Below, in pieces: positions 4,183-20,000 of a DNA stretch of 20,000 nucleotides. The notes beneath the pieces were generated by a model, which made no database searches, was not told the origin of the DNA, and saw only the letters and a program-made list of their open reading frames with translations. How positions within the stretch are numbered: position 1 is the stretch's first letter; each line of letters begins with the position of its first letter. This DNA comes from an uncultured virus (IMG/VR IMGVR_UViG_3300042691_034547) (lineage: Duplodnaviria; Heunggongvirae; Uroviricota; Caudoviricetes): the IMG/VR virus record IMGVR_UViG_3300042691_034547; one strand, written 5' to 3'. A program made the translations under genes and the position numbers.

Positions 4183-5588
4183 CGTTTAGGACTAAAGACT
4201 CTAGCTCCACCGCCACCATTCCTAAATGGCGGAAGTCTTCTTGCAGATGGCGATTTAGCTGTGATTCGACCACCAACAAAACCCTCTGGTGGCTTAATCA
4301 TCAATGCGGTTAGTGCATGTACTAATGCGTCAACTCTGTCTGGAGACTTTCCTTCTCCTGGAATCCACTGTGTCATTTGGCTCTCGAGATCTGTTAAATA
4401 TCCTAAATGATGAACTCTTCCTTGCTCATATGCAAGAACAGTTGGTTCAGCACGAAGCTGTTTGCCGTGCTTTGAATGAACTTCAAGAACTTTTACATTT
4501 GGATCAATAGCATTAATAGCGTTTCTTACCAAAGCTCCACCTTGATTTACTTCAGCTACAACTGGTGCACCCCAGCGCTTAGACATCTCTACAACTTTAT
4601 TTGCCCAAAGCTCTGGAGATCCATGAACTGTTGCATCTTCTAAAACCCAAGCGTGTCTCTTATATAAATCTCTATCTGCAGTTGCAGCGCATACAATAAT
4701 TCCACACTCATCTCGTGGATTTTCTGCCACAGATGGATCAACGCCAATAATTCTTAGCGGTGTAGATGGTGGTAGAACTCCTTGCCGTGAAGCTTCAATC
4801 ATTTCAATTGTCCACAATGCGCCTTCAACATCTGAAAGCATCTCACCATAAAGTTCCTGCTGAGCAAGTCTTGTTCCTTGATAAACTCCAACAATTGTGT
4901 CTAGATATGTTTGACTTAAGTTTCCTCTGTTGTCAAGAGTAGATCCACGAGTAACAACTACCTTGCCAGTTGTTTCTGCTTCTTTTAAAAGTTGATATAA
5001 AAGCGGTACACGCTTTGGAGTAGTAGTAACCATGATTTGCGGATGAGCACCAAGACGAGTACCGACACGCAAGTTATCAAATGCGGTCATACCTGCAGCA
5101 TCTGGTGTTTGTCTCCACGCTGCCACCTCATCGCCCCATGCATGTGTGAACTGCGGACCACGAAGTGAGTCAGGTTCGTCTGCGGTAAAGCATGTTGCGG
5201 TATTTCCATTAGGCCATGTAAGGCGACGCTTTGAAGGCTCGTATATTGGGCGCTCGCTAGGTGGAGTCACATTCATAATGCCTGACTCACCTTCAACAAT
5301 TACATCTCGCACATCAGCTGCGGTACGAGCTACTAACGCAAATCTGCGCTGCCCTGTTGTTGTGTATTTCGCTTGTTCTCTAACCCACTCGGCAGCGGCA
5401 CGGGTTTTACCCGCACCGCGGCCAGCGAGATAGATCCATATATTCCAATTACCTGCTGGTGCTAGTTGTTCAGGTCTTCCCCAAACAGACCAGTCCCAGT
5501 TAAGACTTTTTTCATCGAATCCAGCAAGTAATCTTTTTTGTTCTTCTTCAGGTAAGAGCATTAACTCTTCCATAATGCTTTTACCCAT
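4179..5588 (-). CDS. terL: Phage terminase large subunit
   Basis: Walker A AGRGAGKT, LRGPQFTHAWGDEVA Walker B, TTTP coupling motif, QELYGE, RNase H-like IIGVDP and SPDRVDALV. Confidence 0.9.
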   Translation of the reverse strand: MGKSIMEELMLLPEEEQKRLLAGFDEKSLNWDWSVWGRPEQLAPAGNWNIWIYLAGRGAGKTRAAAEWVREQAKYTTTGQRRFALVARTAADVRDVIVEGESGIMNVTPPSERPIYEPSKRRLTWPNGNTATCFTADEPDSLRGPQFTHAWGDEVAAWRQTPDAAGMTAFDNLRVGTRLGAHPQIMVTTTPKRVPLLYQLLKEAETTGKVVVTRGSTLDNRGNLSQTYLDTIVGVYQGTRLAQQELYGEMLSDVEGALWTIEMIEASRQGVLPPSTPLRIIGVDPSVAENPRDECGIIVCAATADRDLYKRHAWVLEDATVHGSPELWANKVVEMSKRWGAPVVAEVNQGGALVRNAINAIDPNVKVLEVHSKHGKQLRAEPTVLAYEQGRVHHLGYLTDLESQMTQWIPGEGKSPDRVDALVHALTALMIKPPEGFVGGRITAKSPSARRLPPFRNGGGGARVFSPKR

Positions 5589-6315: not shown

Positions 6316-9300
6316 TCTTTACTCCTTCTCCTTGACCTAGCGCCCCGATTTGGGCCACTAGCTGGTCCACCTGCAGGGTTAGACCTAGATCCACCTGCTG
6401 GTGCTCCTCCAGTAGCTGCTGCTGCAGCTCCTAGAGCGGTTTGAACAGCTTGTCCTGCGACAACAACTGTTACAACCATTTTCTCTGCCTCTTCACGCTC
6501 TTCTTCGCTCATATCGGCTCCCAAACTTGCAAGAGCTAATAAAGCTTCTCCTGGATCTGAAAAGATTGCAGAGACTAATTCAGCTGGATTGGCTACTAAT
6601 TCTAGCGCTGCTGCAACCTCTGCTTCTATAACAACTGCGTTGCCATTCTCATCTGTGCGAACATCTACAGGAGTTGCAGGTGGAAGATCCTCGTATGTAA
6701 GACCAGATTCTTTCATTGCCTCACCTGAAACAACTCCATCTACAGCTGCTTCAATAAGTGCCCCAGCAATGACCTCTTTTTCTGCAGAAGTAAGTTTTCC
6801 ATCTGCTGCTAAAGCGTCAGCAAGATTATTAACTTCTTCGGCAGTAACTTCTCCATCTGCACCTAAAGCATCTAAAATATCTTCTGCTTCTTCAGCGGTA
6901 ATTTTTCCATCACTCGCCGCATCATCAATAGCTTCCGTTACTTCTTCTTCTGTTGGAGTATCATTATCAGATGGTTCTTCAGAAGGTTCTTCGACAGGTT
7001 CAGGCTCGGGCTCGGGCGTTGGTTCAGGCTCGGGCTCAGGTTCTGGTGTTGGCTCTGGTTCTGGTTCTGGCTCAGGGGTTGGCTCAGGTTCAGGTTCAGG
7101 CTCTGGCTCAGGCTCTGGCTGAGGTTCTGGTTCGGGTTCTGGCTGTGGCTCTGGTTCTGGCTCTGGGTCTGGTGTTGGTTCGGGTTCTGGTTCGGGTTCT
7201 GGATCAGGAGTAGGTTCAGGCTGTGGCTCTGGATCAGGAGTAGGTTCAGGATTAGGAGTAGGTTCAGGTGAAGGTTCGGGTTGTGGCTCTGGTTGTGGCT
7301 CTGGCTGCGGTTGTGGTGTTGGTTCTGGCTGCGGTGAAGGAGTTGGCTCAGGTGTTGGAGGATTTGGATTTGGCGGAGGAGGAGGCGGAGGAGTCTGATT
7401 TATAACTTCCGCTTGCACCACAGTCTGAGCAGTTTGAACTGCAGCAATAGCTTGAACAGTTTCATTTATTGCAACTTGAGCTGAAGCAATAGCAGTATCC
7501 ATAGCAGTAACAGCGGTCTGAGCTACTGTCAGGTTTGTCTGAGCATTTGTTAGGTTTGTCTGCGCTAAAGTCTGATCAGCTGTAAGAGTTTGTAAAGTTT
7601 GAGTTTGAGTTGTTAAGTTTTGCTCAGCTGTAGCTAGCGTTTGAAGCTGCTGAGTTGTAGCAGTAGAAGTTGTAAATTCAGTTCCAGGAATAATTTCCCA
7701 TCCATTTCCTGTGTATCTCATCAAAGCTACCCAAGCGCCACCACCATTTTCGTAGTACCACATCTCGAATGTCTTGCTGACACCAGCTGTAGTTGCTACA
7801 TCTGCTGTAGAACCGCCGCCGCCTTTGTCATACCAGTCATTGATTACAAGCTCTCCATCTAGGTATAGCTTGACTCCATCATCTCCTGGAGCGTGTAAGT
7901 ATTGAGTTCCACTTTCTTGTGGAGTCCAATTACCTGTGTACTTGACAATTACATCTTCTGATCGATTAGAGCCAGCAACATTTCCTCCGCCCCACTGTTC
8001 ATTAATTCCATTTGTATCAGTGGTGGTATGGATTGGGGTTGCACCTGCTGGAAGAGTTGGAGCGTTGTTTTGTCCTAAAACATTAAATACTTCTACTTTT
8101 AAACCTTGTTGAGTAGCTGAATCAACAACTGCTTGAGCTGCTGCTTCAGTTGCAGTAGCCTCAGTTACTACTGCTTGCTGAGTTGTAACAGCTGTTGTAG
8201 CTGTAGCCAAAACTTGAGTCTTGTCTTCAACAACTGCCTGAGCTGCTGCAACTGTAGGAGCATTAGCAGCTAAAGATTGAGCTGTTGTCATATCTGTTTG
8301 AGCTTGGGTAACTGCTGCTTGAGCTTGAGCAACTTCGGTTGTTGCAGTTGCAACTGCTTGAGTAACTGCAGTGGTTGGTGTAAGAGTGTTAGCAGTTTCG
8401 GTAACTGTTTGAAGAGTGTTTGTAATAGTAGTAACTGCTGCAGCAGAAACTGTTACCTGAGCTTCTGCCACTTTTACTTCAGCTTCATCTATTTCTGTTT
8501 CTGCATTAGTTACTGCAGTTTGTGCTGTAATAACTGCAGAAGCAGCTGAAGTACTTGCTGCAACTGCTACACCTTGAGCTGTAGTTTCGTTTGATTGAGC
8601 TGTTGAAAGAGCAGTTTGAGCTGTTGTAAGAGTCTCAGTTGCTGCAGTCTGAGTTGCTTGAAGAGTAGTTAATGTAGCTTGTTCTGTGGCTAAAGTTGTT
8701 GCTGCAGCTTGAGCTGCTGCTGTAGCTTGTGGATCTGAGCTTGTTTTTGTAACAACAATGTTGTCGACAATATAGTAATCAGAATCTTTTGTAATAGTGA
8801 CTGTTTGAATGTTTGAACCAGTAACAGTCTCGGTTGATGTATACCCTGTTGACTGGTTTTCAGTAGAAACATTGTTATTGATTACTTCAGTGTTGGTTGT
8901 TCCATCTGCATTTGTTGCAGTCATGTTTGTGTCGCCGTTTTTGGCGTATACACCTATTGTTACTGAAGTAACAGTTCCAGAATCGGAAGGATTGACATCT
9001 ATAACAACATTATTTGTTGGATTAATAATAGTAAGAGCTGAACCCTCGGTTTGTTGAGTATTCCAGTTTCCACCAATAGACACACCAGTTGACCCAGTTG
9101 AGGAAGTAACTGTAGTCCCGCCAGTGGTGATTGTTACAACGCTAGTTGTGTTATTTGCAAAAGTCTCTGTAACTGTAGTAGTTGTGTTTGATGCAGCTGC
9201 TGTAGCTGCAGTTGATGTTGCTGTTTCTTGAGCTGACGCTACTACTACTTCTTGAGTCGTTACTGCTGTTGTCGCTGCTGTTGCTGCTGTTTGAGCTTCT

Positions 9301-13309: not shown

Positions 13310-13469
13310 GGTTTTCCCTTGCTTCTTTGAGGAGTTGTTCGAGACTTCTGGAGTCTTGGCCATCACCTCTCCAATCTTCGTAATCTGTCATTTCTATTTC
13401 TGCTGGTTGTTGATTTTGGTTTTTCTGCACTCTTTTTCCAATAAAGTATGCAACCACTAATCCCAGCAT
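13287..13469 (-). CDS. Small protein with short N-terminal hydrophobic anchor
   Basis: 60-aa ORF with GAAAGGA RBS upstream. Confidence 0.55.
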   Translation of the reverse strand: MLGLVVAYFIGKRVQKNQNQQPAEIEMTDYEDWRGDGQDSRSLEQLLKEARENHANKNYQ

Positions 13470-13520
13470 TCTGTCCTTTCGTCTCTTTGAGAGGGTGCCC
13501 CCTAGTAAGCACCACTCTAA

Positions 13521-13685
13521 CTATTCTTGGGTGTTAACGCCAAGCTTTCTTGCTTCTTGCAAGTACATCTCACGATACTCGTCCCAGTACTTCTTTACAA
13601 GCTTCGTCTTAGCACGAGCCTGTGCTGCAGAAGCCCTCTGAGCAGGGGTTAGATCGTTCTTTTTCTTTGTCGTAGCTCTAGGCAC
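13521..13685 (-). CDS. 54-aa basic helical protein
   Basis: GTG start with strong GAAAGGAG RBS. MPRATTKKKNDLTPAQRASAAQARAKTKLVKKYWDEYREMYLQEARKLGVNTQE. Confidence 0.7.
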   Translation of the reverse strand: MPRATTKKKNDLTPAQRASAAQARAKTKLVKKYWDEYREMYLQEARKLGVNTQE

Positions 13686-13709
13686 TACTTCTCCTTTCGT
13701 CTCGGTTAT

Positions 13710-13737
13710 ATGCTAACAGTTCTATCCTAGATGTCAA
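13710..13737 (-). promoter_or_regulatory. Promoter TTGACA-N16-TAGCAT with extended -10, driving the microprotein operon
   Basis: Reverse complement reads TTGACAtctaggatagaacTGtTAGCAT. Confidence 0.6.
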
Positions 13738-14258
13738 GTCTTGATTTTCCGGGCGCCCTTTCCGTCTAGAGAGGCGGAGGGAGGGGGGAGAGGGTTGTGG
13801 GTTTTGGGTTTTTTGCGTAGACAGAGCTTGCATAGAGCATAGGGAGGTGCTCCTTTTTTCTGTCTAAAGACTGTGTTTTCTGGAGTTCTTTCATGTCCAT
13901 GTCTGCATTCTTTATTTAGAATAGGGAATCCCACTATGGTTTCAATAGAAGGTGTTAGACCTCTTTTTAAAGAATCTCTATTATTTTCAGCTATAGTTCC
14001 TAAACTTAAATGATTTGGGTTTACGCAGATTTTATTATCACAGGAGTGCATGACAACATACTTAGATTGTGGTAGTTTTCCTTTAGAATAATGTAAAGCC
14101 CAAGCAACTCTATGTGCAGTTACACATTGTTTAGGTTTGTACGCAAAAGCTCCATAACCACTACTTTGTTTCGATGCAGTCCATTCCCAACAATCTTCTG
14201 GTCCAGCAATAATTACTTTTTCCCAAAAGCGATTAGAAAGAATTTCTAATTTAGTCAC
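13734..14258 (-). CDS. HNH homing endonuclease with C-terminal zinc-binding motif
   Basis: RFWEKV...CWEW...GYG...AHRVAW...VMHSCDNKICVNPNHL...EN.RD and CRHGH..TPENT...CKLC. Start reassigned to GTG 14258 (leaderless, TATTCT 6 nt upstream). Confidence 0.88.
   Translation of the reverse strand: MTKLEILSNRFWEKVIIAGPEDCWEWTASKQSSGYGAFAYKPKQCVTAHRVAWALHYSKGKLPQSKYVVMHSCDNKICVNPNHLSLGTIAENNRDSLKRGLTPSIETIVGFPILNKECRHGHERTPENTVFRQKKGAPPYALCKLCLRKKPKTHNPLPPPSASLDGKGARKIKT
13745..13815 (+). repeat. Dispersed hairpin + G/T-tract element, copy 1
   Basis: Core TCCGGGCGCCCTTTCCG at 13748-13764, purine-rich arm, then a G/T-only tract. Confidence 0.75.
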
Positions 14259-14289
14259 TGGCAAAGAATACAACTGGTAAACTATGAAC

Positions 14290-14991
14290 ATGAGCAAACC
14301 AACATATGTCGCTAAAAAACTTATGATTCTTAAGATAGCCAGAGAACTGAGCGTGGATTTTTCTTCTATTATTGCTAAATATGAGGATCAATACTTTAAA
14401 GACTCTAGTATTCATAAATATGACTTTTTTAAAGAGCTTTTAGAGGACCAGCTTACTGGCGCTTCTGAGACATTTATAAACAGCAGATGTAACCTAACTA
14501 GGTTGCGAGATAACAGAACCCCGCTGGAATATGGCAAAGAACTTGCTATCGGCTGGCTTATGGAGGATGTTATATTAGAAGCTATAAGTAGAACTGGTAT
14601 AAATATAGAATTGCAAGGCTTTGATCAGAGAAGAGAGTTTTTAGATCAAGAACAAATAAGCGCTAGGTCTGACTACTGGATTAAGCTGGGCGAAGAGCTA
14701 GTCTCTCTAGAACTTGTTACTTCTTGGACAAGCTACTGGCAGTCATCAGATAAGCTAGATCTCAGAGCGTCTAAGTTTAAATCAATGGTGACTAAAGCTG
14801 AAAGAACTCTCTGCCTAGGAGTAGAAGCTCCATCTCTTAATGGATTTTGTATAGATATGCAGAAAGACCAAGAACTATTTGAAAGCAAGCCAAACCCTGC
14901 TTGGGGATTCAAACCTTCTCATACGCTAGAAGGTATATCCTCTAAATTAGTTTCTTTAAAAGATGCTGTTGAATTAATCAGAACTGTCTAG
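14290..14991 (+). CDS. Hypothetical protein, possible PD-(D/E)xK restriction-endonuclease-like nuclease
   Basis: GWLMED helix followed by RSDYWI...LELVTS, a nuclease-like D...E pattern. Start at ATG 14290 (leaderless). AT-rich with many AGA/ATA codons. Function uncertain. Confidence 0.4.
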   Translation: MSKPTYVAKKLMILKIARELSVDFSSIIAKYEDQYFKDSSIHKYDFFKELLEDQLTGASETFINSRCNLTRLRDNRTPLEYGKELAIGWLMEDVILEAISRTGINIELQGFDQRREFLDQEQISARSDYWIKLGEELVSLELVTSWTSYWQSSDKLDLRASKFKSMVTKAERTLCLGVEAPSLNGFCIDMQKDQELFESKPNPAWGFKPSHTLEGISSKLVSLKDAVELIRTV

Positions 14992-15065
14992 TGCGCTGTG
15001 TAGGACTTGAACCTACGACGACCCGATTATGAGTCGGGGGCTCTAACCAACTGAGCTAACAGCGC
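14992..15065 (-). tRNA. tRNA with CAT anticodon (Ile2-lysidine or elongator Met); CCA not encoded
   Basis: GCGCTGT-TA-GCTC AGTTGGTTA GAGC-C-CCCGA CTCATAA TCGGG-TCGTC-GTAGG TTCAAGT CCTAC-ACAGCGC-A forms a complete cloverleaf. G1-C72 is paired, so it is not an initiator tRNA. Confidence 0.92.
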
Positions 15066-15069
15066 CAAG

Positions 15070-15142
15070 CGCCCTCGGCAGGAATCGAACCTGCGACGCA
15101 GACCTTAGAAGAGTCTCGCTCTATCCTCTGAGCTACGAAGGC
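15070..15142 (-). tRNA. tRNA-Arg(TCT); CCA not encoded
   Basis: GCCTTCG-TA-GCTC AGAGGATA GAGC-G-AGACT CTTCTAA GGTCT-GCGTC-GCAGG TTCGATT CCTGC-CGAGGGC-G cloverleaf. Confidence 0.93.
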
Positions 15143-15178
15143 TTATTTGTGTCAGACCATAACATAAAAAGTCAAAAA

Positions 15179-15254
15179 TCCCGGCGCCCTTTCCGTTTAT
15201 AGAAGAGGGCGAAAATCCGGGGGGTGTTGTGTGTTTGGTGTGTGTTTTGGGGTG
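15179..15254 (+). repeat. Dispersed hairpin + G/T-tract element, copy 2
   Basis: Core TCCCGGCGCCCTTTCCG at 15179-15195. CGCCCT/AGGGCG and CCCGG/CCGGG arms, then a G/T-only tract. Confidence 0.75.
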
Positions 15255-15266
15255 TAGGCTTTGGCT

Positions 15267-15791
15267 ATGACGACAATAATCGGGATACAGTACGAGAACT
15301 ATTGCCTTCTCGCAGCTGATTCTAGAACTACAAACGAGATTGGTCGTCCGTATCATCATGAAAAAGTAGAAAAGATAACTGAGCGTGGATCATGGCTTAT
15401 TGCTGGAGCTGGAGATCCTCAAGCTTGCGACCTAGTTCAGCATGGTTGGAATCCGCCAAAGCAGGAAGTAAAAGACGATTATAAATATGTTGTAACTAAA
15501 GTTTGTCCAAGTATTCGTGAATATCTAAAGAAAAATGGCTATGAAAAAGATAAGTCTGATAAAGATGGTGGTTTTATATTTCTTTTAGCCTACAAAGGAG
15601 TCATCTATGAGATAGATGAAACCTTTACTGTCTATATGAGAGATGATGGCTTGTATGGAATTGGTAGTGGCTCAAGGTGGGCTTTGGGAGCTTTACAAGG
15701 TGGAGCTGATTGGCAAAAAGCTTTAGAAGTAGCAGAGAAAAACGATATTTATACAGGTGGACCTTTTAAGAGTCTAACCCAAGCTCCTTAA
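15267..15791 (+). CDS. Proteasome beta-subunit / HslV-like Ntn threonine peptidase
   Basis: Start ATG 15267 gives M-TTIIG with the N-terminal nucleophile Thr. Also AADSRTT, EKI, AGAG, GIGSGS and DIYTGG motifs. Confidence 0.85.
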   Translation: MTTIIGIQYENYCLLAADSRTTNEIGRPYHHEKVEKITERGSWLIAGAGDPQACDLVQHGWNPPKQEVKDDYKYVVTKVCPSIREYLKKNGYEKDKSDKDGGFIFLLAYKGVIYEIDETFTVYMRDDGLYGIGSGSRWALGALQGGADWQKALEVAEKNDIYTGGPFKSLTQAP

Positions 15792-16071
15792 GAAAAATAC
15801 CTTTTGGTCTAGCTCCAACTATTCTATTACGCTCTTTTCCATCTTCAAAAAGGATAAATGTTGGAATTGAGCGAAGTCCATACTCGGCTGTTAGTCCAGA
15901 ATTAAAATCTGCATTTATCTTTATAACATCTATTATTTTAGATACTTCTTCTACAATTGGGTTCATTGCTTTACAAGGACCGCACCAGTCTGCCCAAAAG
16001 TCAACAAGAACTTTTCCCTTAGAGAGAAGAACATCTTGAGCAAACTCAGCTGAGCTTGACTCTTTAATCAT
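15766..16071 (-). CDS. trxA: Thioredoxin
   Basis: VLVDFWADWCGPCK and cis-Pro motif SIPT. Confidence 0.93.
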   Translation of the reverse strand: MIKESSSAEFAQDVLLSKGKVLVDFWADWCGPCKAMNPIVEEVSKIIDVIKINADFNSGLTAEYGLRSIPTFILFEDGKERNRIVGARPKGIFLKELGLDS

Positions 16072-16466
16072 TTGACTCTCTTAGCTAGTAATGCATCAAA
16101 GTCTTTTAGCTTTGTTCCGCCACCATACTCCCAAGCATAGCCAGAAGCTATGAGAGAGTGGTTTACAGATTGCTCTGCTCCATCTACATAAAGCCAACCA
16201 AGAATTCGACCATACTTTTCAGTCGAGTCTGGCTTTTCTGTTTTAATAACTATAGTTGTAGCAGAGTCGAGGATTTCTTTAAGCTTTTTCTTTACTTCAA
16301 GACCAAGCGCTTTTTCTCGCTTATCTAGAGTTCTTGACTCTGGAGTATCAATTCCAGCCAAGCGTACACGCTGAAAGAAAGAGACATTAAAACCAAGATC
16401 GATATCAACATCGATTGTGTCTCCGTCTACGACAGCGTGTACTTTCTTGACTCGATAAATGTACAA
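16068..16466 (-). CDS. Thermonuclease (staphylococcal nuclease family)
   Basis: VVDGDTI, RVRLAGIDTPE, KYGRILG and VN..LI.SGYA motifs. Confidence 0.9.
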   Translation of the reverse strand: MYIYRVKKVHAVVDGDTIDVDIDLGFNVSFFQRVRLAGIDTPESRTLDKREKALGLEVKKKLKEILDSATTIVIKTEKPDSTEKYGRILGWLYVDGAEQSVNHSLIASGYAWEYGGGTKLKDFDALLAKRVK

Positions 16467-16475
16467 TTAGTAGAC

Positions 16476-17099
16476 CTACTTAATTGTTTGACCACAGGAA
16501 GAACAGACTTTTGCCTTCTCTTCTTTTGCAGCTGGTGCTGCAGCTGGTGCTGAACCTGCTCCTTTGAACTTAGGGCGACCAAAGCCAACAATAGAAATTT
16601 GTACTTTCTTTGGGTTCTTCTTGTAAGCACGAAGCTTTTTGCATGCTTCGCCACCATTTCGTTGGCTACCTTTTTTGCCATCTCCAGTAGTGTTGCCTTC
16701 TATACACCAAACAGTTCCATCTCCATTGTCTTCAACAACAATACCAACATGACTGATTCTATCGACACCATCTGCCGGGAAATCAAAATAGGCAATATCG
16801 CCTGGATCTGGATCTGCAAGATCTCCATCAATCCATGCGCCTTTGTCCTTAAATGCCTTTGCTCCTGATGGAGTGTAGACAGTATTAGGAACTTTTACAC
16901 CTGCTTGATCGGCGCACCACATAACAAACGAACCGCACCATGGCTGGAAGTTTGCTTTTGTAAAAGCACCATATTTGGTTTCGTTGTCTTTAGGACCTTC
17001 GATGTAACCAACCTGTGACTTAGCAACTTGACATAGTCGAGCAGCGCTTCCTTGTGGTTTTGAGTCCGAAGGAGCGGGTACTGGAAAATCGTCAGCCAT
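16476..17099 (-). CDS. CHAP-domain endolysin (cysteine peptidase/amidase)
   Basis: PWCGSFVMWC (catalytic Cys), PGDIAYFDF, SHVGIV (His) and IEGNT. Ala/Pro linker and C-terminal CSSC. Confidence 0.88.
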   Translation of the reverse strand: MADDFPVPAPSDSKPQGSAARLCQVAKSQVGYIEGPKDNETKYGAFTKANFQPWCGSFVMWCADQAGVKVPNTVYTPSGAKAFKDKGAWIDGDLADPDPGDIAYFDFPADGVDRISHVGIVVEDNGDGTVWCIEGNTTGDGKKGSQRNGGEACKKLRAYKKNPKKVQISIVGFGRPKFKGAGSAPAAAPAAKEEKAKVCSSCGQTIK

Positions 17100-17101
17100 G
17101 A

Positions 17102-17545
17102 TTAGTCCTTATCCCAGTCTGTGTCAACTGGCTTCTCTTCTGGCATTGCGCCATCTGGTTTATTTGCAAGTCGTGCACGAACTGCATCAGCTTCAACATC
17201 TGCTTTAAGTTCTGCAATCTCTAACTCTGATTCAAGCTTCTTATCTGCCTGAGTGTTCTTTGCATCCATTTCTTTATTATCAAGCTGTGCTTTCATAATA
17301 TCCTTAGCACCAGATTGACCAATCAAGATACCTGCAAGTGTTCCTGTAATAAATGTTGCAATGCTACCCAACACATTGAAAAACATTTTATCGTTTTCAG
17401 ACTGTGCGCCAACTGGTTGTGTTACGAACAAAAGTCCGTACAAAATTCCAATTGCTGTAAAAAGTAGAATTAACCCTAGAATAATTCCTAGAGTAAATTT
17501 TAAGCGTGAATCTAGTTCCGCTGGTGAATATCGTTCTCTAGCCAT
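17102..17545 (-). CDS. Two-TM membrane protein with coiled-coil tail (holin-like candidate)
   Basis: Start ATG 17545 with AAGGA RBS. TMs FTLGIILGLILLFTAIGILYGLLFV and FFNVLGSIATFITGTLAGILIG. Lies immediately upstream of the lysin. Confidence 0.6.
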   Translation of the reverse strand: MARERYSPAELDSRLKFTLGIILGLILLFTAIGILYGLLFVTQPVGAQSENDKMFFNVLGSIATFITGTLAGILIGQSGAKDIMKAQLDNKEMDAKNTQADKKLESELEIAELKADVEADAVRARLANKPDGAMPEEKPVDTDWDKD

Positions 17546-17786
17546 TGTTTGTTCCTTCTCCTGTAACGGTCTCTCCGTCACTTGAAGTTCCGTTAAAGAC
17601 ATCTTCTCCGACCAAGTCTACTGGACAATAGCCATTGACTTCGCAAACGGGAGGCTTGCATTCTGCTGTTTCCCAATTAGCTGGGTCTTGGCAAGGATAG
17701 CGATAACGCCCATCTCCTAGGCTGCATCCTGTCAAAACCAAAGCAAGCATAGAAGCTACAAAAATGCTTCCAACTTTCTTTACCAT
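17538..17786 (-). CDS. Small Cys-rich lipoprotein
   Basis: Signal peptide with lipobox LTG-C. Mature part RYRYPCQDPANWETAECKPPVCEVNGYCP. Confidence 0.7.
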   Translation of the reverse strand: MVKKVGSIFVASMLALVLTGCSLGDGRYRYPCQDPANWETAECKPPVCEVNGYCPVDLVGEDVFNGTSSDGETVTGEGTNNG

Positions 17787-17789
17787 GTG

Positions 17790-17879
17790 TCCTCTTCCTT
17801 CTTAAAGGGGACAACACCAAACACAAGGCAATTAAGCCAGACGGGTTTTGATGCTGTCCCCTACAATTTTAAGAGAGGA
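17790..17879 (-). promoter_or_regulatory. Structured 5' leader (long hairpin) with embedded TAAAAT -10 upstream of the lysis cassette
   Basis: Minus-strand AGGGGACAGCAUCAAA pairs with UUUGGUGUUGUCCCCU (16 bp, 2 G-U). An outer arm can pair with the RBS region. Confidence 0.6.
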
Positions 17880-17897
17880 TATAAACTTCTTAAAGTA

Positions 17898-18137
17898 TTA
17901 TTGCTGTACAGGAAAGTTCTCTGCGTCGTCTTTCCAAAGATCGTCGTAGAGAGTTGCTGGGACTCTGTGACCTGCCTCTTCATGAAGCTTGAGGTGGTCA
18001 ACCATATCTTGAGTCTTAAAGGCGCAAAAGCCTGTCTGCTCCATGCGTTCATCTAGCCAGCAAGCGCAGCAATAGAGGTAGTTGTTGACATGCATGAATA
18101 CATAAACATCTGCATCTAGAAAGCGTGAGTAAGCCAT
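17898..18137 (-). CDS. Hypothetical protein with C2H2-like zinc motif
   Basis: YCCAC...MVDHLKLHEEAGH. Leaderless start (TAGAAT 6 nt upstream). Confidence 0.65.
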   Translation of the reverse strand: MAYSRFLDADVYVFMHVNNYLYCCACWLDERMEQTGFCAFKTQDMVDHLKLHEEAGHRVPATLYDDLWKDDAENFPVQQ

Positions 18138-18146
18138 AAATTGATT

Positions 18147-18281
18147 CTACTCCTTATGTCCAAGAATTGATAGTACCTGAAAGATCTCTTGGAGGGAAAG
18201 ATTGTTGAGAATTTCTTGGCGTTTTTCTGGATTTCTTTCTCGAATTATCTGCTCTGCTATTTCGGAGATGGAGAGTTCCAT
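18147..18281 (-). CDS. 44-aa helical hypothetical protein
   Basis: Restarted at ATG 18281 (MELSISEIAEQIIRERNPEKR...), with TACAAT 6 nt upstream. The longer track ORF merely reads through the repeat. Confidence 0.55.
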   Translation of the reverse strand: MELSISEIAEQIIRERNPEKRQEILNNLSLQEIFQVLSILGHKE

Positions 18282-18299
18282 ATCTTTATTGTATTTCAA

Positions 18300-18381
18300 T
18301 TTTCCGGGCTCTCTTTCCGATAGAGGAGGGAGAGTCGGATCTGGGTGGGGGTTTGTGTGTTTTGTGGGGTCGTGTGTTTGG
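18300..18381 (+). repeat. Dispersed hairpin + G/T-tract element, copy 3
   Basis: Core TCCGGGCTCTCTTTCCG at 18303-18319 pairs with GGAGGGAGAGTCGGA. G/T-rich tract follows. Confidence 0.75.
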
Positions 18382-18402
18382 AAAGGGGATAAAGTAGAGG
18401 GT

Positions 18403-18681
18403 ATGAGCGAAGAAGAAAACTCTAACGACGAGAATAGCCTTGAGCACTTAGAGTTTGACAGTGCCACTCCTTTGGAACAGGACGCAGCTCAAATGCATGA
18501 GATGTTTCAAGCTTTGTGCAAAGTAGGGTTTACTGAGCGTCAGTCTCTACAATTGGTAGCTTTTTTGATGACTGAAGCTAGTGAAGATGGCGCAGTCAAT
18601 TTATTCTTTGACGAAACCTTCTTGAAAAGAATGCACGATGGTTTTCCAGATGAGGAAGAGGATGACGGACAGAACTCCTGA
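18403..18681 (+). CDS. Acidic hypothetical phage protein
   Basis: Start ATG 18403 (TAAAGT 7 nt upstream). TPLEQDAAQMHEMFQAL..VGFTERQSL. Confidence 0.65.
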   Translation: MSEEENSNDENSLEHLEFDSATPLEQDAAQMHEMFQALCKVGFTERQSLQLVAFLMTEASEDGAVNLFFDETFLKRMHDGFPDEEEDDGQNS

Positions 18682-18937
18682 AGAGGAAGCTTTTGTAGGA
18701 ATGCTCTTGGATTTTGGAGCACTATACATAGGTGGAGTCGATGAAGATGGCAATGAGCTTTACTTCATGGATGCAAAAATAATGAAAGAAGTTTGTCGTC
18801 CGTTTTACGATATGTGGATGGCAGATATAGATAAGGGATTGTTGGAGCTTTACGAACTTGGTTTGTTAGATGTTACCTACAACGAACAGTTGCAACCAAG
18901 ATTTAGCGTTAGAACTGAGCCTAGAGAAGATTTTTAG
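18662..18937 (+). CDS. Hypothetical phage protein (possibly winged-helix-like)
   Basis: Start ATG 18662 with GAGG RBS, overlapping the upstream gene. GALYIGGVDEDG...LLELYELGLLDV. Confidence 0.6.
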   Translation: MTDRTPEEEAFVGMLLDFGALYIGGVDEDGNELYFMDAKIMKEVCRPFYDMWMADIDKGLLELYELGLLDVTYNEQLQPRFSVRTEPREDF

Positions 18938-19086: not shown

Positions 19087-20000
19087 TTAGAGGAGATCAA
19101 ACCAAGAAATAGCACCGACAACAGATCCTGTTGAAGCAAGTGTTTTAACTGCTACAACATAGACATCACTTACTGGGCCACCTACTGCAGAGGGATTAGT
19201 TCTTCCTAGCTGAAGAGCAAAGTTTGCAATACCACTTACATCAAGCCCTACAGCCGAGCTTTTTCCAGAGTTACCTGGTCCAGAGCCGCCAGCCATGTAG
19301 TACTCGCCTACTACAGTTCCACCATCCATTGCAGTAGCTGAATTATTGTACTCAACATTTTGGTTAGAGTGAGTAGACCAAGTCCCTCCTGTAACTGAGG
19401 TTGGGTTTTTTATAAGGGCAACAACAAAGTTTTGATCTGTTGTTGGAAGTGCAGCAAAGTTAGCTGGGACAATCACAGAGTCTTCTCGACCAGAAGCCAT
19501 TCTTATGGCAACAATTGGGTAAAAAGTTGTTCCAACAGATACAGCTGTATCACGGGCTGCTGTCCATGAGGTTGATTGTTTTTGGTATCCGCCATTAGAT
19601 ATAACTGAAATACAGATTTGCTTAAGAGTGCTAGCTGAGGCAGTTACTCCAATGTTTTCTATTTCGTATCTACATGGTAGGGATGCAGTAGTCATATAAA
19701 CACGATCAATATGATTTGCGTGGTTGAACTGATGAACTGGGATAAAATACCCATCAATAGCAAAACCCATACGAACAGCGCCAACGCCAAGCCACTCTAT
19801 TTCTGTAAAAAGAATTTGAGCTTTGCTTAGGTCTAAAGTCATATCGCTTGGACCGTTTCCATCAAGGGTGTCTATGTTCCATTGAGACTGAGGGATTCGT
19901 GTTTCAACGATCTGACCTGTGGTGAAATCCCTTTTTACTAGATTGACAACTGTTCCATCAAGCTCTAAGTAAAATCCATTTTGTATAGAAAAATATCCTG
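19087..20000 (-). CDS. Probable virion structural protein (5' end outside the window)
   Basis: Frame stays open past 19842 to the window end: GYFSIQNGFYLELDG...QSQWNIDTLDGNGPSDMTLDLSKAQI...EWLGVGAVRMGF. Beta-rich pattern recalled from aquatic phage proteins. Confidence 0.6.
   Translation of the reverse strand, partial: GYFSIQNGFYLELDGTVVNLVKRDFTTGQIVETRIPQSQWNIDTLDGNGPSDMTLDLSKAQILFTEIEWLGVGAVRMGFAIDGYFIPVHQFNHANHIDRVYMTTASLPCRYEIENIGVTASASTLKQICISVISNGGYQKQSTSWTAARDTAVSVGTTFYPIVAIRMASGREDSVIVPANFAALPTTDQNFVVALIKNPTSVTGGTWSTHSNQNVEYNNSATAMDGGTVVGEYYMAGGSGPGNSGKSSAVGLDVSGIANFALQLGRTNPSAVGGPVSDVYVVAVKTLASTGSVVGAISWFDLL

What the first reader, a model, noticed from the sequence alone, without database searches (positions are those of the whole stretch)
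13745..18381. Three-copy dispersed hairpin + G/T-tract element with compensatory base changes, located at strand-switch points
Seen: three same-orientation non-coding copies (13745-13815, 15179-15254, 18300-18381) share the 17-nt core TCC(G/C)GGC(G/T)C(C/T)CTTTCCG. In each copy the core is followed by a purine-rich arm and about 30-45 nt of almost only G and T. The 3' arms diverge in sequence but keep pairing. Copy 2 pairs CGCCCT with AGGGCG and CCCGG with CCGGG. Copy 3 pairs GGCTCTCTTTCC with GGAGGGAGAGTC, so the G>T and C>T core changes are matched by C>A and G>A. Copy 1 pairs CTTTCCGTCT with AGGCGGAGGG. G-U/G-T wobbles in copies 1 and 3 work only on the + strand. Copies 2 and 3 lie exactly between divergent units, and copy 1 does too if the HNH gene is removed. 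Inference: a structure-selected single-stranded element such as an ncRNA, insulator/terminator, priming or packaging signal, or recombination cassette boundary. No standard feature class explains it.
Basis: partly seen in the sequence, partly recalled or inferred. Interest (0 to 1): 0.8.

Follow-up and report, generated by a model that had tools for sequence, protein, structure and literature searches.

The report
Repeated control cassette between phage promoters
The three repeats are real copies of a one-way intergenic cassette that sits between back-to-back promoters in a group of large freshwater actinobacterial phages. They look like a new variant of the poorly understood "start-associated" repeats of actinophages, not a structured RNA.

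Summary
The three copies are real: 3 matches against 0.09 expected by chance. They belong to a family of at least 41 distinct copies in related ~130-160 kb uncultured actinophages. Each genome holds 3-7 copies, all on one strand, clustered about 8 kb from the terminase gene.

The claimed compensatory hairpin is not supported. RNAalifold finds no consensus structure. Folding z-scores average -0.5. The pairing follows from a pyrimidine-rich core sitting next to a purine-rich arm.

Three things are conserved:
- A 20-nt core. Its complement, CGGAAAGGG(C/A)GCCCGGAAAA, resembles the start-associated sequences (SAS) of Cluster K and EF actinophages. In the sister lineage it lies between a stop codon and a start codon.
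- A tract that stays G/T-only while its sequence drifts.
- The position, between a leftward sigma-70-type promoter abutting the core and a rightward TAnnnT box 6-7 nt before a leaderless ATG.

Gene content changes at the cassette edges. My best reading is a polar, DNA-level regulatory and insulating cassette that is SAS-like and PeSL-like. Its function is untested, and interest is moderate.

The parts
13745..13764 (+). Core, copy 1 (TTTTCCGGGCGCCCTTTCCG). On the - strand it reads CGGAAAGGGCGCCCGGAAAA, which is SAS-like.
   Evidence: nhmmer hit 13742-13806
13765..13815 (+). Purine-rich arm and G/T tract of copy 1. On the - strand it is translated as the C-terminal tail of the HNH ORF.
   Evidence: 13779-13815 is at least 90% G+T
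13710..13737 (-). Leftward promoter-like site TTGACA-16-TAGCAT, with TG before the second hexamer, starting 7 nt after the core. It is followed by GACGAAAGGAG and the GTG at 13685 of a 54-aa ORF.
   Evidence: 10 of 12 matches; same layout in related copies
13734..14297 (-). HNH endonuclease ORF. It runs through the whole of copy 1, and its stop codon (TGA) lies inside the TTGACA hexamer.
   Evidence: homologues in G002, G005 and G006 do the same
14991..15142 (-). tRNA-Met and tRNA-Arg. They form the leftward unit beside copy 2 and start 36 nt from the core.
15176..15195 (+). Core, copy 2 (AAATCCCGGCGCCCTTTCCG; the 17-nt core is 15179-15195).
15196..15254 (+). Purine-rich arm and G/T tract of copy 2.
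   Evidence: (15215-15258 is at least 90% G+T)
15255..15269 (+). TAGGCT, then 6 nt, then the ATG of the HslV-like gene. This is the geometry of a rightward leaderless promoter.
   Evidence: read; the same geometry appears in orthologues with other hexamers
18279..18299 (-). TTGAAA, then TACAAT, then 6 nt, then the ATG of a 44-aa ORF, directly abutting the core of copy 3. The TTG is in frame with the ORF.
18300..18319 (+). Core, copy 3 (TTTTCCGGGCTCTCTTTCCG).
18320..18381 (+). Purine-rich arm and G/T tract of copy 3.
   Evidence: 18334-18370 is at least 90% G+T
18390..18405 (+). TAAAGT, then 7 nt, then the ATG of a 92-aa ORF. This is the geometry of a rightward leaderless promoter.
   Evidence: (L182 and L167, TAnnnT at gap 7)

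Best explanation
The element is a polar (one-orientation) intergenic control cassette of about 75-90 bp, specific to one lineage of large freshwater actinophages.

Anatomy:
- It fills the space between two back-to-back promoters.
- Its core end abuts a leftward sigma-70/sigma-A-type promoter.
- Its G/T end runs into a TAnnnT box placed 6-7 nt before a leaderless start codon on the right.
- On the strand of the leftward genes the 20-nt core reads (TAA)C-GGAAAGGG(C/A)GCCCGGAAAA-(NTG). This is a Shine-Dalgarno-like purine run followed by GCCC, as in the start-associated sequences (SAS) of Cluster K and Cluster EF actinophages.

Inferred mechanism (not shown):
- The core is the recognition site of a trans-acting factor, most simply a DNA-binding protein, that sets the activity of the adjoining promoter pair.
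- The G/T-only tract (C/A-only on the other strand) is a spacer constrained in composition, not in sequence. It forms the upstream region of the rightward promoter and keeps the two transcription units apart.
- Because the same ~80 bp recurs 3-4 times within 5 kb, it also serves as a joint at which gene cassettes are exchanged between related phages.
- It is not an RNA whose hairpin is under selection.
For: Shown:
- **Family and polarity.** The searches returned matches in 5 of 5 related records (G002-G006): 22 matches to the 20-nt pattern at up to 3 mismatches, all on one strand within each record, against 0 for the reversed-pattern control. The complete genome G002 has 4 copies within 111,977-117,230 of its 134 kb. 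A profile HMM finds no further copies.
- **Rightward promoter geometry.** Of the 40 copies examined, 21 are followed by a + strand ORF, and every one of those 21 has TAnnnT 6 or 7 nt before its ATG/GTG. The other 19 have no such start: 18 run into the antisense HNH gene or have no nearby ORF, and 1 is a chance hit. Ten different hexamers keep the TA...T pattern: TAGGCT, TAGGAT, TACGAT, TAAGAT, TACACT, TAAAGT, TAGAGT, TAGATT, TAGTAT and TAGGGT. The background is 3.2-3.6% of all ATGs.
- **Leftward promoters abut the core.** The layouts are core|TTGACC-16-TACAAT-6-ATG, core+6-7|TTGACA-16-TAGACT/TAGCAT, and window copy 3 core|TTGAAA|TACAAT-6-ATG.
- **The G/T tract evolves but keeps its composition.** In 12 orthologous copies, 21 of 44 columns vary, and 13 of those 21 are pure G<->T exchanges. 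In the adjacent coding sequence the figure is 3 of 66. The tract is 95.6% G+T. Such tracts occur only at the element copies in the window and mark every copy in G002, G005 and G006; the few other tracts at that threshold in G002 and G005 look different.
- **The core is SAS-like.** Published consensus sequences are GGGATAGGAGCCC (Cluster K; passages) and GGGAAAGGACCCC (Cluster EF; passages). In the sister lineage (G003, G004), 13 of 13 copies have ATG/GTG/TTG 3-4 nt after ...CCCGG(A)AAA, 10 of those open ORFs of 33-262 codons, and a TAA/TGA often sits directly before the motif.
- **Gene content differs at the cassette edges.** The comparison covers the window, G002, G005 and G006, and homology blocks start or stop at 15148/15166-15179.

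Inferred: the existence of a binding factor, the promoter activities, and the insulating and recombination roles.
Against: - No expression data could be obtained, so no transcription start, strand or protein binding is shown.
- The distance from the core to the leftward -10 box varies (6, 13-14, 22-23 and 28-29 nt). The distance from the core to the rightward ATG also varies (+77 to +125). The core is therefore not a fixed promoter element.
- No conserved DNA-binding protein was found beside the cassettes. The HTH protein next to the HNH gene in G002 and G005 has no counterpart in the window.
- In the sister lineage the core lies in the position of a ribosome-binding site inside operons. That fits an RNA-level (translation) role at least as well as a DNA-level one.
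- A double-strand DNA-binding model does not predict strict strand asymmetry of composition.
- The relative DSL-LC01 uses C/A-rich 5' leaders, which favours an RNA reading of the C/A strand.
Confidence: 0.42

Rival explanations
1. RNA-level reading on the opposite (-) strand. The cassette would be part of leftward transcripts, as an unstructured C/A-only leader or intercistronic stretch that ends in a super-Shine-Dalgarno (SAS) plus start codon. It would act in translation initiation or coupling, or as the operator of an RNA-binding factor.
For: - In G003/G004 the core lies stop-codon|core|start-codon between co-directional genes, with 13 of 13 copies having NTG at +3/4.
- Across six genomes, 18 of 24 copies have NTG at that place, against roughly 9% expected from 3 of 64 codons at two positions (the expectation is my own arithmetic).
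- The relative DSL-LC01 has about 25 promoter cassettes followed by C/A-rich leaders and ACGACGAAAGGAC before the ATG.
- An RNA made only of C and A cannot fold.
- The HNH mRNA necessarily carries copy 1.
Against: - In the window lineage the NTG after the core opens only 3-19 codons, or is absent, in most copies. The window has 1 of 3 copies with a real ORF.
- The core is followed by near-consensus promoters rather than genes.
- No consistent leftward promoter was found upstream of the C/A tract (read).
- On the - strand only about 28% of helix cells would pair. This is derived: 263 paired cells minus 149 U-G cells, out of 410. An SD-sequestering hairpin is therefore not conserved.
Confidence: 0.23
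2. Terminator-promoter insulator. Leftward RNA polymerase that has read antisense through the small rightward gene islands would transcribe a 60-70 nt stretch that is C-rich, free of G and unstructured, which is a Rho loading site. It would then meet the hairpin-prone core region and be released just before the fresh leftward promoter.
For: - The - strand of the tract contains essentially only C and A.
- Two of the three window copies form a hairpin on the - strand that is better than shuffles, with z = -4.33 and -4.53.
- A new leftward promoter follows at once.
- The leftward lysis operon ends overlapping the 3' end of the HslV-like gene, with no terminator-like site found between them.
- Composite terminator/promoter cassettes are known in T4-type phages as PeSLs (passages).
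- The properties of rut sites are recalled from general knowledge, not tested here.
Against: - Family-wide, the - strand folds are not special: mean z is -0.92, and 4 of 41 copies fall below -2.
- In copy 1 the tract is translated as part of the HNH ORF, which would block Rho loading.
- The host, and whether it has Rho, is unknown.
- The simple scan sees no intrinsic terminator signature at the elements.
Confidence: 0.12
3. Recombination joint, as the main selected function. The repeated ~80 bp, with a G/T-rich strand, would be kept because it promotes homologous exchange of the gene cassettes it flanks, in the manner of PeSL-mediated modular shuffling. Alternatively it could be the target of the adjoining HNH endonuclease.
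For: - The genes between copy 1 and copy 2 differ in all four related genomes, while the tRNA pair, the HslV-like gene and the cassettes are kept.
- Whole genes are inserted at the left edge (G006, G002) or the right edge (G005) of copy 2.
- An HNH gene is fused to copy 1 in the 4 genomes that hold this junction and were examined.
- G002 has a tandem extra copy 125 bp away.
Against: - Mosaic breakpoints at intergenic regulatory regions are expected anyway.
- No circular or deleted products were observed.
- Copies 2 and 3 carry no endonuclease gene.
- A recombination role does not explain the near-invariant core or the fixed polarity.
Confidence: 0.12
4. One reading: a + strand single-stranded element (ncRNA, or a priming or packaging signal) whose hairpin is maintained by compensatory substitutions.
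For: - All three window copies, and most of the 41 family members, give a + strand fold of about -15 to -26 kcal/mol in which the core pairs with the purine arm, with G-U pairs that exist only on this strand.
Against: - RNAalifold predicts 0 pairs on 41 sequences.
- + strand z-scores are -0.20, -0.65 and -1.94, with a family mean of -0.53.
- The orthologue of copy 3 in L194/L216 pairs in a different register.
- If transcription starts at the leaderless ATGs, the cassette is not in the rightward RNA at all.
- There is no Rfam match.
Confidence: 0.05

Closest known systems
Start-associated sequences (SAS/ESAS) of Cluster K mycobacteriophages (Pope et al. 2011, PMC3203893) and of Cluster EF Microbacterium phages (Jacobs-Sera et al. 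2020, PMC7302621)
   Same: - Both are short asymmetric repeats kept in one orientation.
- Both are confined to a non-structural part of the genome.
- Both have a G-rich Shine-Dalgarno-like run followed by CCC. By my own alignment, ours (GGAAAGGGAGCCC) matches 10 of 13 positions of GGGATAGGAGCCC.
- In the sister lineage the motif lies 3-4 nt before start codons, often right after the upstream stop codon.
- Each is linked to a less conserved 'extended' sequence on its upstream side.
- The function is unknown in the literature too.
   Different: - There are only 3-7 copies per genome, against 10-19.
- The conserved unit is 20 nt, not 13.
- In the window's own lineage most copies are not start-associated. 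They lie upstream of promoters at divergent junctions.
- The extended part is a composition-locked C/A plus C/T tract, not a 17-bp inverted repeat.
PeSLs, the composite promoter-early/stem-loop cassettes of T4-type phages (Arbiol et al. 2010, PMC2839356; Comeau et al. 2014, PMC4122927)
   Same: - Both are conserved intergenic modules of about 100 bp that combine promoter elements with a hairpin-prone G-rich/C-rich segment containing G-T pairs.
- Both are clustered in a variable region.
- Both are found at the borders of genes that differ between close relatives.
   Different: - PeSLs are unrelated in sequence and host, number about 50 per genome, and point the same way as the gene they drive.
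- Their promoter and terminator activities and their mini-circles were shown by experiment. None of that is shown here.
Stoperators of L5 and other Cluster A mycobacteriophages. They are mentioned in PMC3203893; the details here are recalled.
   Same: - Both are asymmetric sites in short intergenic gaps.
- Both keep one orientation relative to transcription.
- In both, one site overlaps a promoter.
   Different: - Stoperators are bound by the immunity repressor of temperate phages and number about 24-30.
- No repressor gene and no evidence of temperate growth were found here.
18-30 bp asymmetric intergenic repeats of Cluster EC and EI Microbacterium phages (PMC7302621)
   Same: - Both have 5-12 co-oriented copies in small intergenic regions of actinophages.
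- In both the function is unknown.
   Different: - The sequences differ.
- Those repeats sit 22-30 bp upstream of start codons.
- They have no G/T tract.

Membership tests
SAS (start-associated sequences) of actinobacteriophages | Short asymmetric repeat present in one orientation only | tested here: met
   All matches lie on one strand in each of 5 of 5 related records and in the window. The reversed-pattern control gave 0.
SAS (start-associated sequences) of actinobacteriophages | [quoted passage not shown] | tested here: not met
   In the window only copy 3 qualifies: its TTG, 4 nt after ...CCCGG, opens a 50-codon ORF. Copy 2 opens 7 codons and copy 1 has no start codon. G002 gives 1 of 4 with NTG and no real ORF. 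The feature is met only in the sister lineage G003/G004: 13 of 13 copies have NTG, and 10 of those open ORFs of at least 33 codons.
SAS (start-associated sequences) of actinobacteriophages | Contains a Shine-Dalgarno core within a GGG...CCC frame | tested here: inconclusive
   GGAAAGGG(A/C)GCCC has the purine run and the CCC. It matches 10 of 13 positions of the Cluster K consensus quoted (alignment by eye). The host 16S rRNA is unknown.
SAS (start-associated sequences) of actinobacteriophages | Ten or more copies spread over the non-structural arm | tested here: not met
   There are 3-7 copies per genome, clustered in 5-13 kb. G003 and G004 each have 1-2 further core-like matches inside a coding gene.
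PeSL-type mobile regulatory cassette | Conserved intergenic module holding a promoter plus a stem-loop | tested here: inconclusive
   Promoter-like boxes flank the module, and a hairpin-prone segment lies inside it. No activity was measured.
PeSL-type mobile regulatory cassette | Borders genes that differ between close relatives; recombination products exist | tested here: inconclusive
   Gene content differs at the cassette edges. Recombination products cannot be tested with these tools.
Structured RNA (any Rfam family or a new one) | Match to a covariance model, or base pairs supported by covariation | tested here: not met
   There is no Rfam hit on the elements at E up to 5. RNAalifold predicts 0 pairs. 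The covariation score is 0.133 against 0.133 in shuffles.
Intrinsic (Rho-independent) terminator | G+C-rich stem followed directly by a T run | tested here: not met
   None of the 6 terminator-like sites found in 13400-18700 lies in an element. A G-rich stretch of 15-25 nt separates the stem from the first T runs.
Stoperator/operator of a phage repressor | Bound by a phage-encoded repressor | not testable with these tools
   No repressor-like gene was recognised among 26 window ORFs or among 141 of the 150 G002 ORFs of at least 65 aa.

The most novel reading that the evidence does not exclude
The cassette may be a new kind of polar insulator for back-to-back leaderless promoters. Its working part would be a tract held to two letters per strand: G/T on one strand and C/A on the other. 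The tract would act either through a C/A-only transcript that cannot fold (Rho or ribosome loading) or through non-B DNA (G-quadruplex or Z-DNA) that forms under the negative supercoiling between divergent promoters. A SAS-like core would anchor a phage factor, and the same module would serve as the joint for cassette exchange. If so, SAS-type repeats in general would be protein or ribosome landing pads that can be redeployed from operon junctions to promoter junctions.
Probability: 0.15. Interest if true: 0.6.

Novelty: new variant of a known kind. Interest (0 to 1): 0.36.

Why it matters
- Conserved, orientation-locked intergenic repeats (SAS, ESAS and the Cluster EC/EI motifs) have been catalogued in actinobacteriophages for over a decade without a known function.
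- This family offers a natural comparison. The same 20-nt core is used as a stop-to-start junction inside operons in one lineage, and as the hinge between divergent promoters in the sister lineage.
- That contrast separates what the core needs (orientation and sequence) from what it does not need (a start codon or a hairpin). It argues that such motifs are landing sites for a factor, not merely strong ribosome-binding sites.
- It also adds a clear case of leaderless promoter architecture and of cassette-edge mosaicism in uncultured freshwater actinophages.
- The practical lesson is that a pyrimidine-rich motif next to a purine-rich tract will always look like a hairpin with compensatory changes.

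Tried and rejected
- **RNA evidence.** No RNA holder was listed for window:13300-18900, so read laying could not be used.
- **The window's own assembly** is not held. I worked with the nearest records instead.
- **Rfam at a permissive threshold** returned only the two tRNAs and weak chance hits.
- **Viral contig scan.** The 17-nt pattern returned 88 loci. That is about the number I estimate for chance in a collection of that size (my own rough estimate). Sorting them showed three groups: the true family, a protein-coding look-alike ('family B'), and an unrelated coding match in ~40-kb contigs.
- **Metagenome scan.** It gave 83 stretches. Of 121 distinct flanks, 42 passed my G/T-tract filter. 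I dropped L156 as a chance hit and L063 as a G004-type copy without a tract, and added window copy 2 by hand. That gave the 41 sequences aligned.
- **Replication origin.** Cumulative GC skew in G002, G003 and G004 follows gene orientation and shows no turning point at the cassettes. This is uninformative.
- **G-quadruplex.** Four or more runs of GGG occur in copy-1-type and copy-3-type arms but not in most copy-2-type arms (read). The feature is therefore not conserved.
- **Fixed -35 box in the G/T tract.** The TTGTGT motif lies 17-28 nt from the -10 box (read), so this was rejected.
- **The DSL-LC01 promoter motif** is absent from the window and from G002 (0 matches).
- **Serine recombinase sites.** The core has no dyad symmetry beyond GGGCGCCC, and that symmetry is lost in copy 3 and in G003/G004. 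Directly repeated sites would delete the lysis genes. I did not pursue this.
- **Earlier notes of this scan.** There were none by sequence or by place.

Full report
**1. What the window is**

- The 20-kb window is a piece of a large tailed phage. Recognisable genes are:
  - a primase/D5 helicase (1552-4182, + strand);
  - the large terminase (4179-5588, - strand);
  - a 1168-aa PA14 protein;
  - a small serine recombinase;
  - ThyX;
  - an HNH endonuclease (13734-14297, - strand);
  - tRNA-Met and tRNA-Arg (14991-15142, - strand);
  - an HslV-like peptidase (ATG 15267, + strand);
  - thioredoxin, a staphylococcal-type nuclease, a CHAP endolysin and membrane proteins (15766-17786, - strand);
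  - a virion protein (19087-19998, - strand).
- The terminase is 98% identical in protein sequence to G006, 90% to G002 (134 kb, terminal repeats, rated complete), and 82% to G003 and G004 (160 and 136 kb).
- It is 76.5% identical to the terminase of Actinomycetia phage DSL-LC01, with Microbacterium and Gordonia phages next.
- G002 encodes three WhiB-family proteins. No RNA polymerase or sigma factor was found among the 141 ORFs I scanned, out of its 150 ORFs of at least 65 aa.
- The DSL-LC01 paper predicts an actinobacterial host for that phage (passages).
- The setting is therefore a lineage of uncultured freshwater actinophages of about 130 kb with about 42% G+C.

**2. The observation**

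- The 17-nt core occurs three times, all on the + strand. Chance expectation is 0.09, and 0 of 200 shuffles reached three (also repeat family D12).
- Windows of 30 nt with at least 90% G+T occur only at the three copies and never on the other strand.
- Copies 2 and 3 lie between divergently oriented units.
- Copy 1 lies between two - strand genes, because the HNH ORF runs through it and stops 9 nt beyond the core.
- That HNH arrangement is not a recent accident. HNH homologues (50-80% protein identity) read through the equivalent copy in G002, G005 and G006, and stop 8-34 nt past the core.

**3. The family**

- In G002-G006 the 20-nt pattern, at up to 3 mismatches, gave 22 matches. All lie on one strand within each record, and the reversed pattern gave none.
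- In the complete genome G002 the four copies lie within 5.3 kb, about 8 kb from the terminase gene, as in the window.
- Scans of the viral and metagenome collections brought in many chance and coding matches, which I sorted out.
- After filtering for the G/T tract, 41 distinct copies remained and were aligned (the dropped rows are named under Tried and rejected).
- A profile HMM built from that alignment finds the same copies and no others in the window and G001-G006. It finds none in 41 kb of DSL-LC01.
- DSL-LC01 as a whole has no match above control level.
- In G003/G004 the core is present, but the purine arm and the G/T tract are not.

**4. Is a hairpin under selection? No.**

- RNAalifold on the 41 sequences predicts no pair at all.
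The shuffled mean is 63.7%, and 133 of 500 shuffles are as high.
- Sliding the 3' arm by 1-3 columns gives 60.5-71.7% paired.
- The covariation score is 0.133, the same as in shuffles.
- 149 of the 263 paired cells are U-G pairs. On the - strand only about 28% of cells would therefore pair.
- + strand folds of the window copies are no better than dinucleotide shuffles (z = -0.20, -0.65, -1.94).
- Over the family the mean z is -0.53, and 1 of 41 copies falls below -2.
- On the - strand, copies 2 and 3 score -4.3 and -4.5. The family does not follow: mean z is -0.92, and 4 of 41 copies fall below -2.
- The explanation is compositional. The core is pyrimidine-rich (CCCTTTCC, TTTTCC) and is followed by a purine-rich arm, so some register always pairs.
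- The orthologues of copy 3 in L194 and L216 pair in a different register.

**5. What is conserved instead**

(a) The core itself. Eleven columns of the alignment are invariant, and most of them lie in the core.

(b) The composition of the tract, not its sequence.
- In 12 orthologous copies upstream of the HslV-like gene, 21 of 44 tract columns vary.
- 13 of those 21 are pure G<->T exchanges, against 3 of 66 in the adjacent coding sequence.
- The tract is 95.6% G+T.

(c) The position between two promoters.
- On the right, 21 of the 40 copies examined are followed by a + strand ORF. Each of those 21 has a TAnnnT hexamer 6 or 7 nt before the ATG/GTG.
- Window copy 2 has TAGGCT-6-ATG.
- Ten different hexamers keep the pattern, in front of at least three unrelated genes. 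The background is 3.2-3.6% of ATGs.
- This is the geometry of leaderless transcripts. That leaderless transcripts are common in Actinobacteria is established knowledge that I recall, not something tested here.
- On the left, near-consensus sigma-70-type promoters start at or within 7 nt of the core:
  - core|TTGACC-16-TACAAT-6-ATG;
  - core+6-7|TTGACA-16-TAGACT;
  - window copy 1, TTGACA-16-TAGCAT with a TG extension;
  - window copy 3, core|TTGAAA|TACAAT-6-ATG.
- The flanks beyond these boxes differ between copy types. The repeated unit is therefore the stretch between the two promoters.

**6. The core on the other strand**

- Read in the direction of the leftward genes, the core is CGGAAAGGG(C/A)GCCCGGAAAA.
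- Cluster K mycobacteriophages carry 11-19 copies of the start-associated sequence GGGATAGGAGCCC, 3-7 bp before start codons, in one orientation, in the non-structural arm (passages).
- Cluster EF Microbacterium phages carry GGGAAAGGACCCC in the same position (passages).
- Our motif shares the purine run and the CCC (10 of 13 positions to the Cluster K consensus, by eye).
- In G003/G004 all 13 copies have ATG, GTG or TTG 3-4 nt after ...CCCGG(A)AAA, and ten of them open ORFs of 33-262 codons.
- Three of those ten lie antisense to a conserved coding gene and are doubtful.
- A TAA or TGA often stands directly in front of the motif. There the motif is a 20-nt stop-to-start junction.
- In the window's lineage the start-like triplet is present in 5 of 11 copies listed, but it opens only 3-19 codons. 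The exception is window copy 3 (50 codons, in frame with the leaderless ATG).
- The window's copies are thus related to SAS but do not meet its defining positional feature.

**7. Mosaicism**

- Between copy 1 and copy 2 the window carries HNH plus a 235-aa ORF plus the tRNAs. G006, G002 and G005 carry other genes there.
- The tRNA pair (89-93% nucleotide identity), the HslV-like gene and the cassettes are kept in all four.
- Extra genes sit exactly at the left edge of copy 2 in G006 and G002. In G005 an extra gene sits between the cassette and the HslV-like gene.
- This is the behaviour described for PeSL cassettes of T4-type phages (passages; abstract). It is also what one expects of any regulatory intergenic region.

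**8. Interpretation**

- The best-supported reading is a polar control cassette between back-to-back promoters. Its core is a recognition site for a factor, and its two-letter tract is a composition-constrained spacer and upstream region.
- What is shown: the anatomy, the polarity, the conservation pattern and the edge mosaicism.
- What is inferred: promoter activity, factor binding, insulation and recombination.
- The main rival is an RNA-level role on the - strand, as a C/A-only leader plus super-SD. It gains weight from two points:
  - the operon-junction position of the core in G003/G004;
  - the C/A-rich leaders behind the ~25 repeated promoter cassettes of DSL-LC01.
- A Rho-type insulator and a recombination joint remain possible, and neither excludes the best reading.
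- Two earlier notes of this scan, on other genomes, describe a leaderless-promoter module at gene-swap points in mycobacterial prophages and a SAS-like leader in an aquatic actinophage. They agree in kind, but I did not check them.

**9. Limits**

- There are no expression data, because none could be listed.
- The host is unknown.
- ORF maps of the relatives are my own longest-ORF heuristic.
- The 41 copies are phylogenetically related, so the counts are not independent events.
- The figure supplements of the two actinophage papers (motif alignments) were not seen.

Noticed in passing
window 13734-13808 (- strand): The last ~24 codons of the HNH endonuclease ORF are encoded by the cassette itself (C/A tract, C/T arm and core). 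The stop codon is the TGA inside the TTGACA promoter hexamer. In G002 the homologous ORF reads through two cassettes, giving a tail of about 85 codons. The G/T tract has no A on the + strand, so its - strand has no T and cannot contain stop codons.
   Followed up: partly
L125:16309-16328 (G004), with the equivalents in G003 and many viral contigs (for example L003, L014, L025, L062): A 20-mer that differs from the core by one base lies inside a conserved protein-coding gene two genes upstream of the portal gene. It is read on the same strand as the cores and encodes ...SPGSLSD.... Third-codon-position changes between contigs show that it is coding. Why the nucleotide string matches the intergenic core is unexplained.
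   Followed up: partly
L112:1-20000 (Actinomycetia phage DSL-LC01, OQ999401.1 24063-44062): About 25 co-oriented copies of a promoter cassette, GATTCTAAAG(A/T)TGTTATAAT(A/T)GAATC. It is an extended -10 box flanked by an inverted repeat. Each copy is followed by a C/A-rich leader and ACGACGAAAGGAC before the ATG of a small gene. The motif is absent from the window and from G002.
   Followed up: partly
L117:10300-15100 (G002 90.3-95.1 kb): About 15 co-oriented copies of CC(N)GGAAA(T/A), which is the 3' half of the core complement. Seven of them lie in a stretch of about 1 kb with no convincing ORF, mixed with repeats such as GCTGCAGATCTG. This may be an iteron-like or regulatory region.
   Followed up: no
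window 6960-7361 (inside the 1168-aa PA14 ORF, - strand): 22 overlapping copies of a repeat with period 12/18 nt, in a low-complexity part of the coding sequence. Pfam gives a weak PARP-repeat match at residues 798-865.
   Followed up: no
window 16068-16466 compared with G002 126,612-126,949: The staphylococcal-type nuclease gene sits in the lysis cluster in the window, G003 and G004. In G002 it sits next to the terminase/primase genes. This is another sign of gene shuffling in this group.
   Followed up: no
L118:8785-9198 (G002): A 137-aa protein matches Pfam Tad3, a type I Thoeris inhibitor (E = 2.3e-15). It has homologues in G005, G003 and G004. The gene lies just beyond the right end of the window's synteny.
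   Followed up: no
window 17898-18137 (- strand): A 79-aa protein (MAYSRF...CCAC...HLKLHEEAGH) is conserved next to copy 3 in all lineages (G002, G005, G003, G004). It also has a TAnnnT box 6 nt before its ATG. It has no Pfam or PHROG family.
   Followed up: no
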